Source: a virus (lineage: Duplodnaviria; Heunggongvirae; Uroviricota; Caudoviricetes). Taken from it: DNA of 47,347 bases. Made by a program: the position numbers and the translations under genes. The notes under the pieces are model-generated. The model was not told the origin of the DNA and did not search any database. It saw nothing but the letters and a program-made list of their open reading frames with translations. Location: IMG/VR virus record IMGVR_UViG_2737471835_000007, one strand, 5' to 3'. Below, piece after piece: positions 11,732 through 41,784 of this stretch (position 1 is its first letter; every line of letters starts with the position of its first letter).

Positions 11732-13810
11732 TTACCCCGGTATTTGTTGCATTCCGGCGAGTTGTGCCAGTATGTCGGAACCTGGTTTTTGTTGAACGTC
11801 GAGCCTGATTACCTGAGAAGTATTATTTGGTGAATATACGTTTCCCCGGTTCATTGCCAGCGCCCGCATCACATCATCGCCACTTACTGCACGAGCGGCG
11901 TCCCCATTTTCATGGTTAATAATGCCCTGAATTAGCTTTCTCATTATCTCAAAATTAGAACCATCGATTTTCTCCTTAACACCTAATCCGGTGTACTGAG
12001 AGAGATAGCTTTTATAGGACGATGTGTTATTTCCATCAGATGAAGGGGCATAAATATCAATAATCTGATCAATCGTATTTTTGCCGCGTTTCAGGTATAG
12101 CATTACCTGCCGATCTAAGGCAGCAATGCCTTCCAGCATCGTCGGGAAGCTGGCAAAACGGGCATTTGGCCCCGATTCCAAGGTAGCCCCTTTTTGTCCT
12201 GCGAAATTAAGATTTCCGGGATTGTTATTCCTGATCCCTCTGGATAAATATGCAGATCTGTTTACTTGATTTGAAAATCCCTGCAATCCTCCAGGCCAGA
12301 CCTTACCCGGATTGTTTTTTTGCCACTCCTGCACTTCGTTAAAATAATCAAAGTTGAAACGCCCCTCCAGCCCTTTCATTTCCTCACTGGTGGTTGGTGT
12401 GTCATTTGTAGGAATAGCCAATCCAGCTACTGTTCCGGCTGTAGCCCCAAGAAGACTTCCACCAACAACACGGGCGGCAACTCCGGTCGTTGTGGCTGCC
12501 ACAGCACCAACTCTCGATGGTCCAGCAAGTACTGCGGCCCCAAAAAGCCAGGGATGTTCAACCGCAAAACCAACAAACCCGCTAAGTGCCTTAACAACCT
12601 TTGCAACATTTTCGGCAAAATTATTCAGGTCGTTATTAAAATCCGGGCCATTTACATACTTACCAAGTTTATCCAGACCTGTTTCAACATCAGTCAAAAT
12701 TCTTTTAAAGTTCTCACCGTTAAGGAAATTTAGACCAGCATTCTTTACACCATTAGATATTCTAATTAGCTGTACAGAGTTACCCGACATTGCCCCCTGA
12801 AATCCGCTGGTAAGTTGATCCCAGTTATTTTCTAAGTTACTGGTAAGATTCTGATACTGGCTTGTATGTCCAGAGGTGAGCAACGAGTCATTCTGAGAAG
12901 CTCGCGATAAAAACTCTTTGTTGAGTTCAGGTATTTTGTCCTGATATTTGACTAACTGGTTAGCAATACCAAAATTTACCCATCCAAGGCCACGACCTCT
13001 GAGCATGCTCTGAGTAAGTCCGGTTCCCTCATACTCCTTTGCAAGAGCAGCAACTCTTTCTAACAATACAGGAAGATTTTCTGCTGCCCCTTTTTTAGGA
13101 TTTATCCCTAATCCAATTAGCCCGTTGTAAGCAGGATGCTGAGTGTCATTTTGCGCGGCTGCCAGTGTATTGAGCAAATTACCAACACCGGAAAAATAAG
13201 GCGAATAAGTGCTTTCTGCCGCCTTTAACTCTCCTGGAGTTGCCTGCAATTCATCAGCATTTTTCTGTTTCTCTACAACATTACGAGCCATCATGCCAAA
13301 GCCAAACGGCCCGGTAACGCCCATAACCGCAAGTTTTGTCCCCCACGATACGGTGGTTTTAAACAGGTTGTTTAATCTCGAAGTGGTCGTCCGTAGCGTA
13401 GAATTGATCTGCTTGTAAGTTTTCAGCGTCTGTTTGGCGTTTTTCCCCAGCCCGCTGAGGTACTTATCAAACATCGTTTCGCCGCGACCTTTATAGTTGC
13501 TCACCAGCGAATCAGGTGTTTTCCCGCTGCCAACAAAGCGCCATTTTTCATCCCTTAAACGTCCATCAGTGGAAGCAGCCAGAACTGGCGCGGGTGAAGA
13601 TGGTTTCCTGGGAGCCTGATTGGCTTCTCCGCCTGTGGTTGTCTGCCAAGAGCCACCTCCCGGACCGGTATTTGAAGGTATTTTAAGCGGCGTACCGGCA
13701 GGGCCAATCATCAGTCCGTTGCGATACTTTTCAAATATCGCCTCAAGCCGCCTGAGGTGTTCTTCATTAACATCCAGCGTCAGAACTGGCATCTGGTTAC
13801 CAGCCATCAC
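11732..13810 (-). CDS. tail tape measure protein
   Basis: 692 aa, Gly/Ala-rich central segments, located after the chaperone pair and before baseplate genes. Confidence 0.7.
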   Translation of the reverse strand: MMAGNQMPVLTLDVNEEHLRRLEAIFEKYRNGLMIGPAGTPLKIPSNTGPGGGSWQTTTGGEANQAPRKPSSPAPVLAASTDGRLRDEKWRFVGSGKTPDSLVSNYKGRGETMFDKYLSGLGKNAKQTLKTYKQINSTLRTTTSRLNNLFKTTVSWGTKLAVMGVTGPFGFGMMARNVVEKQKNADELQATPGELKAAESTYSPYFSGVGNLLNTLAAAQNDTQHPAYNGLIGLGINPKKGAAENLPVLLERVAALAKEYEGTGLTQSMLRGRGLGWVNFGIANQLVKYQDKIPELNKEFLSRASQNDSLLTSGHTSQYQNLTSNLENNWDQLTSGFQGAMSGNSVQLIRISNGVKNAGLNFLNGENFKRILTDVETGLDKLGKYVNGPDFNNDLNNFAENVAKVVKALSGFVGFAVEHPWLFGAAVLAGPSRVGAVAATTTGVAARVVGGSLLGATAGTVAGLAIPTNDTPTTSEEMKGLEGRFNFDYFNEVQEWQKNNPGKVWPGGLQGFSNQVNRSAYLSRGIRNNNPGNLNFAGQKGATLESGPNARFASFPTMLEGIAALDRQVMLYLKRGKNTIDQIIDIYAPSSDGNNTSSYKSYLSQYTGLGVKEKIDGSNFEIMRKLIQGIINHENGDAARAVSGDDVMRALAMNRGNVYSPNNTSQVIRLDVQQKPGSDILAQLAGMQQIPG

Positions 13811-14100
13811 AATACTCCTGCGGGATTTTTGAATTTGAGCAGCTCACGAAACTGAGCTGCTGTTTTTACATTTAGGCCGGAATCTGCACAGATGTCTCTG
13901 AATCCGGCTCCGGCTGAGTAGTCGAGGATGTCGCTGATGACGTGTTCGCCGTCGCGCCAGAACTGGCGGCTGATTTCAATGTCGGCAATGAAGCGATCCA
14001 TTCCGTAAGATTCAATAACGAGCATTGAGTGCTCCATACTCCATTGACCACATCCATAGTCCCCTTCGCCTGCTCCGGTGAATTTATCGACGAGACGCAT
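13807..14100 (-). CDS. -1 frame ORF overlapping chaperone, probable frameshift extension (GT-like)
   Basis: Alternative frame opens at the T8 run and ends 3 nt before the tape measure start. Confidence 0.4.
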   Translation of the reverse strand: MRLVDKFTGAGEGDYGCGQWSMEHSMLVIESYGMDRFIADIEISRQFWRDGEHVISDILDYSAGAGFRDICADSGLNVKTAAQFRELLKFKNPAGVL

Positions 14101-14501
14101 GTAAAAAAAATGAGCTCACCCGCCACTTCATCCAAATCAATGATTTCACGCTCCAGCGCCATATCGAGAGGGATTGTGTCGTAGCCTTTACCCTCCACTG
14201 AGTAAACAAGGTTTGCCAGGCGAATGACCTCATTAACAAGTGTATTACGGACCCCTTTATCACCTTCCCAGATATTAGAATCACGCGAGATCCGCTCCAG
14301 CATCAAAAAAGCAATACGCGGACCCGCAACGACGCCAAGACCTTCTGAAAAAATGGCAGAAAAAGTTTTACTCAGAATGAAGAAATGCTCTTTAAACACC
14401 TCTTTGCTGATCGGCGTGGCATGGATCCAGCCATTACCCTTTTCTGTCCGGACAGGAATAATCAGGTTTAAATTTCGCGCGATTTTCATACCAGATCCCA
14501 C
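13872..14501 (-). CDS. tail assembly chaperone (G-like)
   Basis: 209-aa ORF between tube and tape measure; contains slippery U UUU UUU at 14103-14110. Confidence 0.55.
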   Translation of the reverse strand: MGSGMKIARNLNLIIPVRTEKGNGWIHATPISKEVFKEHFFILSKTFSAIFSEGLGVVAGPRIAFLMLERISRDSNIWEGDKGVRNTLVNEVIRLANLVYSVEGKGYDTIPLDMALEREIIDLDEVAGELIFFTCVSSINSPEQAKGTMDVVNGVWSTQCSLLNLTEWIASLPTLKSAASSGATANTSSATSSTTQPEPDSETSVQIPA

Positions 14502-14929
14502 ATTTCAGAGTTGATGTAATACGTACCAGTAATGGTGATGGCCACACCCGGCTCGCCCCCGGCGAAGGTCATATCCTGCACGTTGGTGATCGCCGTGTTA
14601 TAGATATCGAAGTCACCGAACACCGTGCTGTCGCTATACACTTTTGCGTCGCCGATCGTGGCATTCTTTTCCCATTGCGCCTTGAATTGTTTTCCCAGCG
14701 CCTGGCTACGCAGCAGATGAACACGCGCCTGTAAAATCATGTATGGCTGCGGCGACTGCACGGCTCCCGTCATAGCGGGTAAAAACTCCGTGATATTGCC
14801 CTGAAAGGACAATTCGACGCCTTCTTTTGCCAGAAATGAGGCGGACACATTCAGTTCAGAATGGGAGGTGAATTTAACGCTGGCGCGAACCCGGTTAAGG
14901 GTGCCAACGGGGATCATTGGATTAGGCAC
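14486..14929 (-). CDS. tail tube protein
   Basis: 147 aa directly downstream of sheath-like gene. Confidence 0.55.
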   Translation of the reverse strand: MPNPMIPVGTLNRVRASVKFTSHSELNVSASFLAKEGVELSFQGNITEFLPAMTGAVQSPQPYMILQARVHLLRSQALGKQFKAQWEKNATIGDAKVYSDSTVFGDFDIYNTAITNVQDMTFAGGEPGVAITITGTYYINSEMWDLV

Positions 14930-14940
14930 GGTTCAGTCCC

Positions 14941-16278
14941 TCACGAAAGCTGCATTGTCACATTGATGTTAAAAATGATTTCGACAAATCCGCGCATCGG
15001 CGTATAGGAGGCCGAAAGGCCTGCATAACGCCCGATACCGTAATCATTGGGATTAGTGTTGATATACTGGCGGAAAGGCACTGCATCGACGACAGGCTGA
15101 CCGTTGACCAGGCCGTAAGATACGCCCGTATTGAACACCGCCTGTGCGACCTGCTGTAGACGGTCGATCCCGTCCTGGTTGTAGTAAAGCGGGTTAATTG
15201 AGTTATTGCTGCCGTTGATCACCGTGTTGGCGAGCTGCATATCGACATTAATCTGCACCCAGTCCACGGAATACCAGTACGTCATATCGTTACCGTCACT
15301 GGTAACGCCTTTCACCAGAATCGTGTTGGAAATTCCCCCCTCAGCCCCCGTGTCGACGTAGTTAATATTCTGCTTCGTCATCGTGACCAGAATTGAATTT
15401 TTGCCCGTGTGGGCGTTTACCGCCTGTAGATAGCGAAATGCCATCGGCGGCACCTTGTTGATTTCTGAAGGTGATGCGGAAACATAGTTCCACATTACGG
15501 CTGCTGCCGCGTTTGTCGCCGGGTACGTATCATCCGCCGTTGCAATAACCGACTTAATACCGGCATAAGGCGAAACGTAATTCGTGTCGTCCGGCGTTTT
15601 CGTCAGCACGAAGAAATACTGCATCGCTTCGTTGGCGGTGTGGAGTTTTGCCAGACTGATAAACTCTGCGTCACCATCCCACGGCTGCGGCACCAGATAC
15701 GCATAAAAACGCAGGAGCGGATCTTCCATATAAGCTTTCAGTGCAGCGATTTCCTTACTGACTCCACCTTTCTGTACTCCCAGCTCCAGCAGGTAAATCC
15801 CAACTGAATTTCCCTGGGCAAAAAACGTGTTTACTGCCGTCACCAGATTTTCACTGCCAACAATGGAAAACTGCCCCAGTGTCACTGGCGAACCGGAAAG
15901 CTGAGAATCAGCAATCGTCCAAGTCAGTGTTTTTTCATCCGTGACGGTAGCAGTATATTCGCCATTCCACGCGTCGGGCGAACACCCGGAAACAACAATT
16001 TTCACCTCAGAACTGTTTTCGCGTCGGATGTTGCTCCCTTCCGGAAGCGTCATCGTAACGGTGACGTTTGCCGCAGATTTTCCTGCAGCAGCCGCCGACA
16101 ACGCAGCAATCGGATTTCTTACCAGATCGTTAATATCCTGATTACGGGTGAGTAATACAGGCTTTCCCGGCTCATGAGTCGTGGAGCCAAACGAGAGAAC
16201 AGCGGACATCTGCTGCGAATTCGAGGGAATGGCCCCGATGGTCTGGGACACATTCACCGTGACGATATTAAACCCCAT
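14941..16278 (-). CDS. tail sheath protein
   Basis: 445 aa, position before tube and chaperone; consistent with a contractile tail. Confidence 0.6.
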   Translation of the reverse strand: MGFNIVTVNVSQTIGAIPSNSQQMSAVLSFGSTTHEPGKPVLLTRNQDINDLVRNPIAALSAAAAGKSAANVTVTMTLPEGSNIRRENSSEVKIVVSGCSPDAWNGEYTATVTDEKTLTWTIADSQLSGSPVTLGQFSIVGSENLVTAVNTFFAQGNSVGIYLLELGVQKGGVSKEIAALKAYMEDPLLRFYAYLVPQPWDGDAEFISLAKLHTANEAMQYFFVLTKTPDDTNYVSPYAGIKSVIATADDTYPATNAAAAVMWNYVSASPSEINKVPPMAFRYLQAVNAHTGKNSILVTMTKQNINYVDTGAEGGISNTILVKGVTSDGNDMTYWYSVDWVQINVDMQLANTVINGSNNSINPLYYNQDGIDRLQQVAQAVFNTGVSYGLVNGQPVVDAVPFRQYINTNPNDYGIGRYAGLSASYTPMRGFVEIIFNINVTMQLS

Positions 16279-25130: not shown

Positions 25131-26211
25131 TATCCACTCCCGGCATCGGCAGAGAGTTGTGGATAATTATTTCGTTATTCTCACCACCCACGCCTTTTTT
25201 GAGGTTTTCAATCTCAGTGCGCAGCTTTTCGTTGCGAAGCCTCAGTCCTTCAAGCTCCAGATCATTGCGACTGTCAGTTGCACCACCAGCAGAACTTCCT
25301 TTCGTCGCCATTATCAGCTTGATAAGTTCGCGCCGGGCGGCAGCCTTATCCTCCAGCAGGATCTCAACACCAAATTTCCCGAGCTTTGCCCCTGCATATA
25401 ATTGTCGCGCATCCCCATCAAGCAGAGTGGTATCAGCCATATAAAGCTGTCCCGTTCCCTCACCGCAGCACTTCGGACAATCCGGATTGGGTATGGCGTT
25501 ATCAACAAAGCCGAGGCCTCCATATTCCGGCTCGGGTTTGCCATCTCTGGAGGCCTGTGCCGCTGCCTTATCGAATTCTGCAATATCACGCCACTGGTAG
25601 AGATGATTCTCGCCCCAGCAATAACGGCAGTTAACACGGCGAAATTGTGCCAACTGATTGGGGTCGGCCTGGACAATAGCCATCAACTGACTCACCAGTA
25701 AATCCAGGTCTGCGGTATAGCGTTTCTGATACTGATTGCGGAAGTAGCTGATAGCACGATAAACCCTGGCATTTCTAAGCATACGGCTGGCGTTGCTGTT
25801 AGCTGTCGCACCTTGCCCCTCATAACCAGCCAGTCGGTATGCCTCTGTCGGCTTTTTCCCCTGAGCAACAAGCATCGCAAACTTAGCCTGCTGGTCAGAA
25901 ATGCCGAATTCATCGGGGCAGAACGAAAATTCCTCCGCGTCGCCCTCATTCAGGCACGCATCGGATACTGGCTTTTTTTTCTGAGATTTTCCGTTCCGCT
26001 TTTGCGCAGTCTGCGCAGATTTTTTCTGCGCACTTTGTTGCGCAGTTTTGCGCATTTCTGTCTGCGCATTTTTCGGAGGTTTTTTGATGTAACGACGGGC
26101 TGTTGCGTAATTCAGTCCCCTTGCCTCACACCATGCCACCGGAGATACACCGGAGCGGGTGTATTCAGCAATATATTCCTGCTGCAACGCCCCCCAGTCC
26201 GGTCTGCTCAT
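25120..26211 (-). CDS. terminase small subunit
   Basis: N-terminal HTH; MLVAQGKKPTEAYRLAGYEG...SRMLRN motif of small terminase family; Cys-rich zinc-ribbon-like segment. Confidence 0.6.
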   Translation of the reverse strand: MSRPDWGALQQEYIAEYTRSGVSPVAWCEARGLNYATARRYIKKPPKNAQTEMRKTAQQSAQKKSAQTAQKRNGKSQKKKPVSDACLNEGDAEEFSFCPDEFGISDQQAKFAMLVAQGKKPTEAYRLAGYEGQGATANSNASRMLRNARVYRAISYFRNQYQKRYTADLDLLVSQLMAIVQADPNQLAQFRRVNCRYCWGENHLYQWRDIAEFDKAAAQASRDGKPEPEYGGLGFVDNAIPNPDCPKCCGEGTGQLYMADTTLLDGDARQLYAGAKLGKFGVEILLEDKAAARRELIKLIMATKGSSAGGATDSRNDLELEGLRLRNEKLRTEIENLKKGVGGENNEIIIHNSLPMPGVDNVD

Positions 26212-30118: not shown

Positions 30119-30862
30119 TTATTCTTGAGTAACACTTAAACTCATCTCATTGAATGCAGCCATCCTGTAACCTGCCGGTGTAACACCAAAATAACTCCTG
30201 AATACGCTGATAAAATAAGATGTAAAATTATAGCCGCACTGAGCAGCGATTCTGTTGATGGCGCAACGAGATTGATTCAACAGCATTGCTGCCATTCTCA
30301 TTCTCTCTGTAAGCAACAACTCACTGAAACAGGTGCCTTCTTCTTTCAGTCTTTTTTTTAACAAACTTTCACTGATACATAACCGCGAAGACACATCTCT
30401 CAGAGTCCAGTTTGCTGCAATGTCCGTACGAAACAATGCACTAAGCCTGTCACTAATATTGCTAATACACGCGGTCAGAAACGACGAAAACATCTTCTCT
30501 GATGAGAAAAACGCCAGACACGAAAAGGAAAGCATTTCCGCTAAATTGTCCGTATGAATCTTTTCCTCACAAAGATAATCAATCAGGATGCCCATCAATT
30601 CTGCCTTCGGAAAACTCACGCAAAGATATCGTGGTATTTGCCGGACTAAAACTACATCCTGTTTTTCGTCTCCACACAACAGGTAACGGCTAATTGTCGA
30701 TTCACTGAGACTTATTCGCCGAAAACATTCCGAAAAGGGCAATAACGATCCAGCTCCCCCCCTGACAAGAAGTGCACTACCACTTTCAAGAGAGAGCTCT
30801 TTTCCTTCAAAGAGCACAACAAACGGGGAATGAACAAAAACAACAGAACAGGCTTCATTCAT
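30119..30862 (-). CDS. AraC-family transcriptional regulator, AppY-like
   Basis: 247 aa from MNEACSVVF; C-terminal AraC HTH ...WTLRDVSSRLCISESLLKKRLKEEGTCFSELLLTERMRMAAMLL...QCGYNFTSYFISVFRSYFGVTP resembles AppY as recalled. Confidence 0.8.
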   Translation of the reverse strand: MNEACSVVFVHSPFVVLFEGKELSLESGSALLVRGGAGSLLPFSECFRRISLSESTISRYLLCGDEKQDVVLVRQIPRYLCVSFPKAELMGILIDYLCEEKIHTDNLAEMLSFSCLAFFSSEKMFSSFLTACISNISDRLSALFRTDIAANWTLRDVSSRLCISESLLKKRLKEEGTCFSELLLTERMRMAAMLLNQSRCAINRIAAQCGYNFTSYFISVFRSYFGVTPAGYRMAAFNEMSLSVTQE

Positions 30863-41508: not shown

Positions 41509-41784
41509 ATGATTACCAATTATGAAGCCACTGTTGTAACTACCGATGACATTGTTCACGAGGTTAATCTGGAAGGAAAGCGTATTGGCTACGTGATTAA
41601 AACAGAAAATAAAGAAACCCCATTCACTGTGGTTGATATCGACGGTCCATCAGGCAACGTAAAAACACTTGATGAAGGTGTCACAAAAATGTGCCTGGTT
41701 CACATCGGAAAGAATCTGCCCGCAGAAAAAAAAGCCGGATTTCTGGCAACTCTGATTGCAATGAAATTAGGCGGTGAAATCTGA
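41509..41784 (+). CDS. racC: RacC-like protein
   Basis: 91 aa from MITNYEATVV with AAGGAG ribosome-binding site; immediately upstream of recE. Confidence 0.6.
   Translation: MITNYEATVVTTDDIVHEVNLEGKRIGYVIKTENKETPFTVVDIDGPSGNVKTLDEGVTKMCLVHIGKNLPAEKKAGFLATLIAMKLGGEI

What the first reader, a model, noticed from the sequence alone, without database searches (positions are those of the whole stretch)
13807..14501. Candidate programmed -1 ribosomal frameshift in the tail assembly chaperone
The minus-strand mRNA has the heptamer U UUU UUU (plus-strand A8 at 14103-14110) inside the chaperone ORF. A -1 slip enters a frame open to 13807, 3 nt before the tape measure start, as in lambda G/GT. Unusually, the zero frame also stays open for 75 more codons to 13872, so two long alternative C-termini are possible.
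Basis: partly seen in the sequence, partly recalled or inferred. Interest (0 to 1): 0.5.

Follow-up and report, generated by a model that had tools for sequence, protein, structure and literature searches.

The report
Mid-gene frameshift in tail chaperone
A prophage tail-assembly gene carries a conserved seven-U slippery site two-thirds of the way along, so a minority of ribosomes probably slip back one base and make a second protein with a different C-terminal domain; the mechanism is well known, but the gene family is unannotated and the shift sits unusually far from the gene's end.

Summary
On the minus strand, a 205-aa ORF (14489-13872) lies between the sheath/tube genes and the tape measure gene. 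It contains U UUU UUU (14109-14103) in the correct X XXY YYZ phase. The -1 frame opens one codon upstream of the run and stays open for 98 codons, to a TGA (13809-13807) that overlaps the tape measure start.

Comparative data strongly support the frameshift reading.
- About 130 related loci were checked, down to roughly 27-35% protein identity, including cultured Klebsiella, Yersinia and Pantoea myophages.
- All but two keep the heptamer in phase. Both Phe codons are always TTT, and the preceding codon always ends in T although its amino acid varies.
- All keep a -1 ORF that ends at the tape measure start, and the first -1 codon is invariably Tyr.
- A quarter of the relatives have no possible start codon for an independent downstream gene.

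The zero-frame extension is homologous across the whole family. Residues 130-170 belong to the confidently predicted fold, and a conserved C-terminal motif follows. G and GT therefore share only 129 residues, and 53-77 codons are dual-coding, against 6-7 in lambda and P2.

No database annotates this family as a chaperone or marks the slippage. I class it as a new variant of a known kind, of moderate interest.

The parts
13872..14489 (-). Zero-frame gene 'G' (205 aa, stop included), a candidate tail assembly chaperone. Residues 1-170 are predicted to fold. Residues 171-205 are disordered and Ser/Thr-rich, ending in a conserved [IVL]-P-x C-terminus.
   Evidence: The translation is and the match to phrog_11810 (unknown function). 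There are 684 family members at 50% clustering, and these align to residues 1 to about 185. The AF2 model has pLDDT 86.7, with values above 90 up to about residue 170.
14103..14109 (-). Slippery heptamer U UUU UUU in X XXY YYZ phase. The P-site and A-site codons are Phe128 and Phe129. It is part of the T8 run at 14103-14110 and is followed by an invariant A.
   Evidence: The sequence is. The heptamer is conserved in all 72 close loci, in 77 of 78 distant loci and in cultured phages. At this site TTT is used 126 times out of 126, against TTT 152: TTC 165 elsewhere in the same genes. The preceding codon is NNT in 62 of 63 genes, although it encodes V, A, C, T or I.
13807..14103 (-). The -1 frame segment 'T' (98 codons plus TGA). 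It consists of a variable linker of about 22 residues followed by a conserved helical domain (ESYGMDRFIADIE..RQFWRDGEHVISDILDY..GF...AAQFRELL). Base 14103 is read twice in the fusion, giving GT = 129 + 98 = 227 aa.
   Evidence: The translation is and the match to phrog_14324. With the zero-frame protein held fixed, the -1 frame stays open in only 0.5% of synonymous resamplings. pN/pS is 0.30-0.53 in the distal half. In the GT model the T domain has pLDDT of about 90. Natural fused 227-aa proteins P0001-P0003 exist.
13875..14102 (-). Dual-coding zone of 76 codons read in both frames. In the proximal ~20 codons the zero frame is the constrained one, in the middle ~20 codons both frames are constrained, and in the distal ~36 codons the -1 frame is the constrained one.
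   Evidence: Wobble-position entropy is 0.48 in both frames, against 1.07 and 0.77 in the single-coding flanks. The structured and disordered segments alternate between the two frames.
11732..13810 (-). Tape measure gene with a C-terminal lytic transglycosylase domain. Its start (GTG 13810 or ATG 13807) overlaps the stop of the -1 frame.
   Evidence: The ORF is listed. It matches phrog_7694 and phrog_2276 (tail length tape measure). Relatives annotate it as an SLT-domain protein.
14486..14929 (-). Upstream 147-aa gene, presumed tail tube by its position. Its TGA overlaps the ATG of G (ATGA).
   Evidence: The ORF and junction are. It matches phrog_6566 (unknown function). The tube function is inferred from position only.
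14941..16278 (-). Tail sheath gene (445 aa).
   Evidence: It matches phrog_205 'tail sheath' with E = 4.7e-53.
14098..14100 (-). ATG in the -1 frame, two codons after the shift. It is conserved only in the close clade. Gene callers sometimes use it to call a separate 97-aa ORF.
   Evidence: The ORF appears. Distant relatives lack this ATG and read YVN, YCQ, YCG, YCR or YLG instead.

Best explanation

Most ribosomes read the zero frame and make G (205 aa). A small fraction undergo tandem -1 slippage while the two tRNA-Phe occupy UUU UUU (14108-14103). They re-pair on U UUU UU and continue in the -1 frame to a stop that abuts the tape measure start, making GT (227 aa).

Unlike lambda and P2, the shift occurs at residue 129 of 205. 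GT is therefore not G plus an extension. It keeps the N-terminal 129 residues and replaces the last ~40 folded residues and the disordered tail of G with a linker and a helical T domain.

By analogy with lambda, G and GT together coat the tape measure protein and recruit the tube, and neither ends up in the virion.

Shown here:
- the signal and its phase;
- conservation of both frames;
- frozen synonymous sites at the heptamer;
- the end of the -1 ORF at the tape measure start;
- confident predicted folds for both products.

Inferred, not shown:
- that slippage happens at all;
- that it is ribosomal;
- its efficiency (U7 alone gave about 0.3% in E. coli reporters);
- the roles of the two products.
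For: 1. Position. The gene order is sheath, tube-like gene, this gene, tape measure.

2. Signal. U UUU UUU is in phase.
- It is present in all 72 close loci, in 77 of 78 distant environmental loci, in 5 of 6 complete loci fetched for individual distant homologues, the sixth carrying an in-frame T6 (G UUU UUU), and in Yersinia, Pantoea and Klebsiella phages.
- Both Phe codons are TTT in 126 of 126 cases, against 48% TTT elsewhere in the same genes.
- The codon before them ends in T in 62 of 63 genes, although its amino acid varies.
- UUUUUUU is strongly avoided in E. coli genes (z = -15.6), yet it is a working -1 motif there: 0.33% without a stimulator and 10% with a pseudoknot (PMC4066793).

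3. The -1 ORF.
- Resampling synonymous codons of the zero-frame protein leaves the -1 frame open in only 0.5% of trials.
- Its stop lies within -23 to +31 nt of the tape measure start in 62 distant loci.
- The first -1 codon is always Tyr.
- The T domain is conserved and folds with pLDDT of about 90.

4. No own start. Of 60 distinct relatives, 16 have no ATG, GTG or TTG between the run and the conserved YG motif, and only 14 have a start codon with an SD-like sequence. Only 38 proteins in 5.8 billion match the T profile, against hundreds for G.

5. The zero frame is real. Distant homologues align to residues 1 to about 185. W152, S167 and L168 are invariant or nearly invariant, and a C-terminal [IVL]P[SHT] motif is conserved. 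pLDDT is above 90 up to about residue 170, including three secondary-structure elements encoded after the slip site.

6. Both wobble positions are constrained in the overlap.
Against: - There are no experimental data for this family. No paper found mentions a frameshift or a chaperone in these phages.
- There is no conserved downstream RNA structure (0 predicted pairs; z = +0.57). A bare U7 gives only about 0.3% in reporters.
- A U7/U8 run could also support RNA polymerase slippage, which would give the same protein.
- Openness of the zero frame is by itself weak evidence (31% expected given the -1 protein).
Confidence: 0.75

Rival explanations
1. Transcriptional slippage. RNA polymerase stutters on the T7/T8 run and adds one U (or drops two) in a fraction of transcripts. 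Standard translation of those transcripts then gives the same GT fusion.
For: The site is a pure homopolymer, and rU:dA hybrids are the most slippage-prone. UUUUUUU is under-represented in all three frames of E. coli genes, which the authors attribute partly to transcriptional slippage (PMC4066793). A DNA T9 variant gives exactly the fused 227-aa protein (L022; P0001-P0003). There is no downstream ribosomal stimulator.
Against: The conserved core is exactly 7 nt and exactly in X XXY YYZ phase. There are 31 T7 and 46 T8 runs and none longer among the 78 distant loci (63 unique genes). From my own knowledge, known bacterial transcriptional recoding uses runs of 9 or more. The homologous systems in lambda, P2 and Mu are translational (annotations; review). 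An SD-like GAGGTG about 14 nt upstream in 70% of distant relatives would act on ribosomes, not on the polymerase.
Confidence: 0.12
2. Two separate genes. The -1 ORF is translated on its own, from ATG 14100 or an internal start, as a stand-alone protein of about 75-97 aa. No fusion is made.
For: The ATG at 14100-14098 is kept in the whole close clade, even where the zero-frame residue changes (ACA, TCA, ATA). PHROGs holds a 97-aa family for it (phrog_14324). Gene callers occasionally-107-aa products. The position 8 or 10 codons before the YG motif is ATG, GTG or TTG in 40 of 60 relatives.
Against: The ATG is absent in distant relatives. Of 60 relatives, 16 have no possible start codon before the conserved domain, and only 14 have one with an SD-like sequence. 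The Tyr codon directly after the run is invariant, whereas the next ~20 residues vary. The nearest SD-like sequence in the window (GGTGAG) is 14 nt from the ATG. The spacing from the run to the YG motif is fixed at 31-32 codons (34 in one relative).
Confidence: 0.05
3. DNA-level phase variation or error. The homopolymer changes length by replication slippage, so that individual genomes encode either G or GT. The T8 state is then just one phase, or a sequencing artefact of a single 227-aa gene.
For: T9 variants exist: L022 and L074 among 74 loci and P0001-P0003 among 419 proteins. Homopolymers are prone to mutation and sequencing error.
Against: More than 95% of independent assemblies, including complete genomes and cultured phages, have T7 or T8 with the zero frame intact. 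The zero-frame C-terminus is a conserved, folded part of the protein. By analogy with lambda, both products are needed in the same cell.
Confidence: 0.04
4. No recoding at all. The -1 ORF is a by-product of composition, and only G is made.
For: The locus is annotated this way everywhere: as a hypothetical protein with no join.
Against: The -1 frame stays open in 0.5% of resamplings. It is kept open for 93-117 codons (up to 156 in the separately fetched homologues) in about 130 loci and ends at the tape measure start. pN/pS is 0.30 in its conserved domain. The domain folds confidently. About 64 nt between the G stop and the tape measure start would otherwise be non-coding in a tightly packed operon.
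Confidence: 0.02

Closest known systems
Phage lambda G/GT programmed -1 frameshift (tail assembly chaperones; Levin et al. 1993; Xu et al. 2004, 2013, 2014, as summarised in PMC5009743)
   Same: The gene lies directly upstream of the tape measure gene. A heptameric slippery site is the only conserved signal, with no required RNA structure. The -1 ORF has no start of its own and ends at the tape measure start. There are two products with a shared N-terminus.
   Different: In lambda the G and T ORFs overlap by 19 nt, about 6 codons, so GT contains essentially all of G. Here the overlap is 76 codons, and GT lacks the last ~40 folded residues and the tail of G. The motif is U UUU UUU rather than G GGA AAG. 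No sequence or fold similarity was detectable. Lambda has a non-contractile tail, whereas this prophage has a contractile one.
Phage P2 E / E+E' -1 frameshift (myovirus)
   Same: It is a contractile-tail phage with the gene order sheath (FI), tube (FII), E/E+E', T (tape measure). The slippery run is T-rich (TTTTTTG from my own knowledge; the annotated site is 19685). The end of E' overlaps the start of T.
   Different: The P2 shift is 20 nt, about 7 codons, before the E stop, and E is only 91 aa. P2 E belongs to Pfam families that do not match this protein.
Phage Mu gp41/gp41-42 tail assembly chaperone (-2 frameshift)
   Same: It is a temperate myovirus with the order sheath, tube, chaperone, tape measure, and a frameshift-derived longer product.
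   Different: Mu uses a -2 shift, and its short extension of about 45 residues lies near the end of the gene. There is no homology.
Long dual-coding overlaps reached by frameshifting in RNA viruses and IS elements (general class; PMC5009743)
   Same: There is a long region under selection in two frames. Order in one frame is mostly paired with disorder in the other.
   Different: Those cases usually carry a stimulatory structure and different biology. Here the setting is a dsDNA phage morphogenetic operon.

Membership tests
G/GT-type tail assembly chaperone frameshift | The gene lies between the major tail/tube gene and the tape measure gene. | tested here: met
   The order is sheath (phrog_205), 147-aa gene, this gene, tape measure (phrog_2276/7694). 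The same order is seen in relatives.
G/GT-type tail assembly chaperone frameshift | A conserved slippery heptamer X XXY YYZ lies in the zero-frame phase inside the upstream ORF. | tested here: met
   The heptamer is U UUU UUU at 14109-14103. It is kept in about 99% of relatives, with frozen synonymous sites.
G/GT-type tail assembly chaperone frameshift | The -1 ORF has no initiation signal of its own, begins at the slip site and ends at the tape measure start. | tested here: met
   The -1 frame has a stop two codons upstream of the heptamer (three upstream of the first Phe codon). In 62 loci the -1 stop lies -23 to +31 nt from the tape measure start. Of 60 relatives, 16 have no start codon at all.
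G/GT-type tail assembly chaperone frameshift | The shift occurs near the 3' end of G, so that GT is the whole of G plus T. | tested here: not met
   The shift is at residue 129 of 205, with 76 zero-frame codons downstream (53-77 in relatives). The figure is about 6 in lambda and about 7 in P2. The residues GT omits include folded elements H138-152, E155-157 and H161-167.
G/GT-type tail assembly chaperone frameshift | Both products are made at a fixed low ratio, both are required for tail assembly, and neither is in the virion. | not testable with these tools
   This needs proteomics and genetics. No published data were found for this phage group.
Known chaperone protein families (Pfam Phage_TAC_*, P2 gpE, Mu gp41; HK97 gp10-like spiral fold) | Sequence or fold similarity to a described chaperone family. 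| tested here: not met
Bacterial transcriptional-slippage recoding sites | A homopolymer run long enough for efficient polymerase slippage (usually 9 or more, from my own knowledge), with its phase irrelevant. | tested here: not met
   Runs are T7 (31 loci), T8 (46) or T6 (1) and never longer in intact genes. The conserved core is the in-phase heptamer.
Independently translated overlapping gene | A conserved start codon with a ribosome-binding site. | tested here: not met
   ATG 14100 is conserved only in the close clade. Of 60 relatives, 16 lack any start codon and 14 have a start with an SD-like sequence.

The most novel reading that the evidence does not exclude
The frameshift works as a C-terminal domain switch rather than an extension. 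G-specific residues 130-205 comprise two helices, a strand, a helix, and a disordered Ser/Thr tail ending in a conserved [IVL]-P-x tip. They would carry a function that GT must lack, such as self-assembly along the tape measure or a docking peptide. The T domain takes their place on the same N-terminal scaffold. About 20 codons would encode folded segments in both frames, maintained across a family of several hundred clusters. That would make this one of the longest selected dual-coding stretches known in a dsDNA phage structural operon, and a distinct architectural class of tail chaperone.
Probability: 0.5. Interest if true: 0.55.

Novelty: new variant of a known kind. Interest (0 to 1): 0.42.

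Why it matters
**Annotation.** This family has 684 clusters at 50% identity. It occurs in 93 of 5426 complete E. coli genomes and in cultured Klebsiella, Yersinia, Pantoea and Shewanella phages, including a recently proposed new phage order. It is labelled 'hypothetical protein' everywhere, the second product is missing, and about 64 nt are left apparently non-coding. It can now be annotated as a tail assembly chaperone with ribosomal slippage.

**Biology.** It shows that the G/GT strategy does not require GT to contain all of G. This bears on how the two chaperone forms bind the tape measure and the tube.

**Evolution.** It is a clean, deeply conserved natural example of 53-77 codons selected in two frames. 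Order in one frame is mostly laid over disorder in the other, which makes it useful for studying dual-coding constraints and for benchmarking frameshift predictors that assume short overlaps.

Tried and rejected
- **Downstream stimulatory RNA.** Folding 113 nt after the site gave z = +0.57. RNAalifold on 28 diverse sequences gave 0 pairs. The mean z of 60 relatives was -0.8. I found no conserved structure.
- **Openness of the zero frame as proof of coding.** Resampling showed 31% would stay open by chance given the -1 protein, because the risky codons (CTA, ATA, GTA) are rare anyway. I dropped this argument in favour of family-wide homology and the structure model.
- **The conserved position of the zero-frame stop.** It follows almost automatically from a conserved Leu/Ile codon followed by an A in the -1 frame, and a second stop lies two codons on. 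It is not informative.
- **Loci of distant relatives.** The whole-family alignment and two single distant proteins failed as queries. A 7-sequence sub-alignment worked.
- **GT structure from conceptual fusions.** I replaced it with a mixed alignment of database proteins.
- **AFDB fold library.** It was unavailable.
- **Literature.** Xu et al. 2004 is not held. I found no paper describing a long-overlap chaperone frameshift or this family.
- **Other 8-base homopolymers in the window.** None sits at a junction of two same-strand frames.
Full report
**1. What is in the sequence**

All features are on the minus strand.

- A tail sheath gene (14941-16278; phrog_205, E = 5e-53) and a 147-aa gene (14486-14929) are followed by an ORF whose probable start is ATG 14489. 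This ATG forms an ATGA overlap with the upstream stop.
- The ORF runs to TAA 13874-13872 and encodes 205 aa.
- Next comes a 691-aa tape measure gene with a lytic transglycosylase domain (11732-13810; phrog_7694 and phrog_2276).
- Inside the 205-aa ORF the codons read CTC ATT TTT TTT ACA. The T8 run is therefore 14110-14103, and the heptamer U UUU UUU (14109-14103) is in X XXY YYZ phase.
- A -1 slip reads UAC next and stays open for 98 codons, to TGA 13809-13807. That stop shares bases with the tape measure start, GTG 13810 or ATG 13807.
- The -1 frame is closed by TGA 14118-14116 just upstream of the run.
- The zero frame continues for 76 sense codons past the heptamer.

A T7 run alone is not significant: 19 occur in the window against 26 expected. 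But among the four 8-base homopolymers in the window, only this one lies where a second long same-strand frame opens.

**2. Conservation in close relatives**

- The locus is a prophage region found in 93 of 5426 complete E. coli genomes. It also occurs in the phage records Rac-SA53 and vB_Apl-pPE4. All of them annotate only the 205-aa ORF, as 'hypothetical protein'.
- 72 IMG/VR loci have 65-100% identity in the N-terminal part. All carry the run in the same phase (T8; T7 followed by C in L068). All have a zero-frame extension of exactly 76 codons and a -1 extension of 94-101 codons ending at the tape measure start.
- Two loci carry T9 (L022, L074), which fuses the frames. The protein database also holds three fused 226/227-aa proteins (P0001-P0003).

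**3. Which frames are under selection**

I used 43 unique indel-free sequences.

- Third-position entropy is 1.07 in the single-coding N-terminal region and 0.77 in the -1-only tail. In the overlap it is 0.48 for the third position of either frame.
- Nei-Gojobori pN/pS is 0.20 upstream, and 1.7-2.0 in the off-frame controls of that region.
- In the overlap it is 0.73 for the zero frame, 0.60 for the -1 frame and 1.23 for the +1 control.
- The pattern crosses over along the overlap:

| Part of overlap | Zero frame | -1 frame |
|---|---|---|
| First 20 codons | 0.51 | 0.91 |
| Middle 20 codons | 0.78 | 0.75 |
| Next 18 codons | 0.93 | 0.30 |

- Holding the zero-frame protein fixed and resampling synonymous codons leaves the -1 frame open in only 0.5% of trials.
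- The converse test leaves the zero frame open in 31% of trials, so its openness alone is weak evidence.

**4. The zero-frame extension is real**

- An exhaustive HMMER search found 684 family members at 50% clustering, 531 of them below 1e-10. Members at 33-45% identity are 180-230 aa long and align to residues 1 to about 185 of the query.
- In alignment A1, F129, W152 and L168 are invariant, and F128 and S167 nearly so. Most members end in [SV][IVL]P[SHT].
- AlphaFold2 on this alignment gives pLDDT 86.7 and pTM 0.78, with values above 90 up to about residue 170. Helix 119-135 runs straight through the slip site.
- H138-152, E155-157 and H161-167 are all encoded after the slip site. Residues 171-205 are disordered.

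**5. The frameshift signal across the family**

- DNA was fetched for eight individual distant homologues; of the six informative loci, five carry an in-phase T7/T8 and one an in-frame T6 (G UUU UUU), the seventh had no T run and the eighth ends at the contig edge. DNA for 80 environmental viral contigs came from a sub-alignment query.
- 77 of 78 analysable loci carry T TTT TTT in phase at the conserved Phe-Phe. There are 31 T7, 46 T8 and one T6. The zero-frame extension is 53-77 codons and the -1 extension 93-117 codons.
- In 63 unique genes both Phe codons are TTT in 126 of 126 cases, although TTT:TTC is 152:165 elsewhere in the same genes.
- The preceding codon is NNT in 62 of 63, while it encodes V, A, C, T or I.
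- The following codon is always A[CT]N, which makes the first -1 codon an invariant Tyr.
- The -1 stop lies within -23 to +31 nt of the start of the next long ORF in all 62 loci tested.
- Two exceptions keep the -1 ORF but retain only a U_UUU tetramer: L099 (GTA TAT TTT ACA) and L118 (GTG TCT TTT ATT).
- Cultured myophages show the same arrangement, again unannotated: Yersinia vB_YenM_21.09, Pantoea PdC23 and Klebsiella Chronis.

**6. The T segment**

- The first ~22 -1 residues are variable. A conserved domain follows, with consensus ELYGVRxFLADIDxxREFWRDG...LDWxAxxGF...AxEFRQRHL.
- The spacing from the slip site to the YG motif is fixed at 31-32 codons. This fits a zero frame that tolerates no indels there.
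- A model of the natural fusion P0001, built on a mixed alignment, has pLDDT 89.8 and pTM 0.83. The N domain is intact to residue 135, a low-confidence linker spans 136-151, and a helical T domain spans 152-218.
- Ordered segments in one frame therefore lie mostly over disordered segments in the other. About 20 codons (roughly residues 152-170) appear ordered in both.

**7. Rivals**

- *Independent initiation.* ATG 14100 is conserved only in the close clade. Of 60 distinct relatives, 16 have no ATG, GTG or TTG before the conserved domain, and only 14 have one with an SD-like sequence. Only 38 proteins in 5.8 billion match the T profile.
- *Transcriptional slippage.* It cannot be excluded, because it gives the same protein. 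But the conserved element is exactly the in-phase heptamer and is never longer than 8.
- *DNA-level phase variation or sequencing error.* This conflicts with the conserved, folded zero-frame C-terminus and with the rarity of T9.

**8. Stimulators and efficiency**

- No conserved downstream structure exists.
- About 70% of distant relatives have an SD-like GAGGTG some 14 nt upstream of the heptamer. The Glu codon there is GAG 46: GAA 9, against 530:484 elsewhere. That spacing is within the 6-17 nt range used for SD stimulators in PMC4066793.
- The window itself has GAA GTG at that position. Its only SD-like sequence is GGTGAG, 6 nt upstream.
- In E. coli reporters UUUUUUU gave 0.33% -1 frameshifting with no stimulator, 0.45% with the IS911 stimulators and 10.2% with the IS3 pseudoknot. 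It is also the most avoided heptamer in E. coli genes, at z = -15.6.
- The likely efficiency is therefore low, of the order of 0.3% to a few percent. This is an inference.

**9. Comparison with known systems**

- Reviews place the lambda shift 'near the 3' end' of g (PMC5009743). PMC12846349 says the same for chaperones in general.
- In the deposited records, lambda G and T overlap by 19 nt. The P2 shift is 20 nt before the E stop. Mu has a short -2 extension.
- Here the shift is 76 codons before the stop, and GT omits folded parts of G.
- The locus works like G/GT, but it fails the 'near the 3' end, GT = G + T' feature and has no detectable homology to known chaperones.

**10. Verdict**

- This is a previously unannotated, widespread tail-chaperone family with a conserved U7 -1 frameshift site placed mid-gene and a 53-77-codon dual-coding region.
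- It is a new variant of a known kind, of moderate interest.
- The existence of the shift, its ribosomal nature and its efficiency remain to be shown experimentally.

Noticed in passing
Protein P0004 (NCBI, E. coli, 4.8-Mb contig); it corresponds to window ~13960-13975 (-): This 227-aa database protein follows the zero frame well past the U7 site (...SLPTLKSAAS) and only then switches to the -1 frame (FWRDGEH...). The indel is therefore at a different place. It could be a sequencing error or a mutated prophage that makes a different G-T hybrid.
   Followed up: no
L022 and L074 (IMG/VR), at the position equivalent to window 14103-14110: Two of 74 loci have T9 instead of T8. In L022 this fuses G and T into a single 227-aa ORF at the DNA level; L074 carries a second frame change upstream and its zero frame stops after 76 aa. 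The fused proteins P0001-P0003 may come from similar T-run length variants. It is unclear whether these are real variants or homopolymer sequencing errors.
   Followed up: partly
L099:1880-1912 and L118:1880-1912: Two distant relatives have lost the heptamer (GTA TAT TTT ACA and GTG TCT TTT ATT) but keep a 105-106-codon -1 ORF with the conserved T domain. Only a U_UUU tetramer remains, which suggests single-tRNA slippage or a lower shift rate.
   Followed up: partly
Distant loci L085-L164, 14-21 nt upstream of the heptamer; window 14115-14120: About 70% of distant relatives have an SD-like GAGGTG about 14 nt upstream of the slippery site. The codon choice there is biased (GAG 46: GAA 9, against 530:484 elsewhere). 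The window lacks it and has only GGTGAG, 6 nt upstream. This may be a dnaX/IS911-type upstream stimulator, but the conserved E-V residues confound the signal.
   Followed up: partly
Window 13875-13890 (-) and the C-termini of family members (alignment A1): The disordered Ser/Thr/Pro/acidic tail of the zero-frame protein ends in a conserved hydrophobic-Pro-x tip (QIPA here; SVPH, SLPS, SIPT and FIPS elsewhere). It looks like a docking peptide; its function is unknown.
   Followed up: no
L001 (PP818812.1, 'Actinobacillus phage vB_Apl-pPE4'): This record, attributed to Actinobacillus pleuropneumoniae, is 92.5% identical at the DNA level to this E. coli prophage region over 1.3 kb. That is odd for such distant hosts and suggests a mis-assigned host or contamination.
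   Followed up: no
L075:738-2471 versus window 11732-13810 and L077:3336-5096: The tape measure proteins of this phage group carry different cell-wall hydrolase domains at the same locus. The window and L077 have an SLT lytic transglycosylase, while L075 has a VanY-type peptidase.
   Followed up: no
L077:1-394: A GIY-YIG/NUMOD3 homing-endonuclease-like gene sits just upstream of the sheath gene in one distant relative.
   Followed up: no
L165:12304-12901 (E. coli EC11 prophage, downstream of the baseplate genes): A type I restriction endonuclease gene is annotated a short distance after the baseplate genes of the near-identical prophage. It may be a defence cargo gene.
   Followed up: no
Window 25973-25980 (+), 30352-30359 (+), 41726-41733 (-): There are three other 8-base A/T homopolymer runs. 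None lies at a junction of two long same-strand frames, so none looks like a recoding site.
   Followed up: yes
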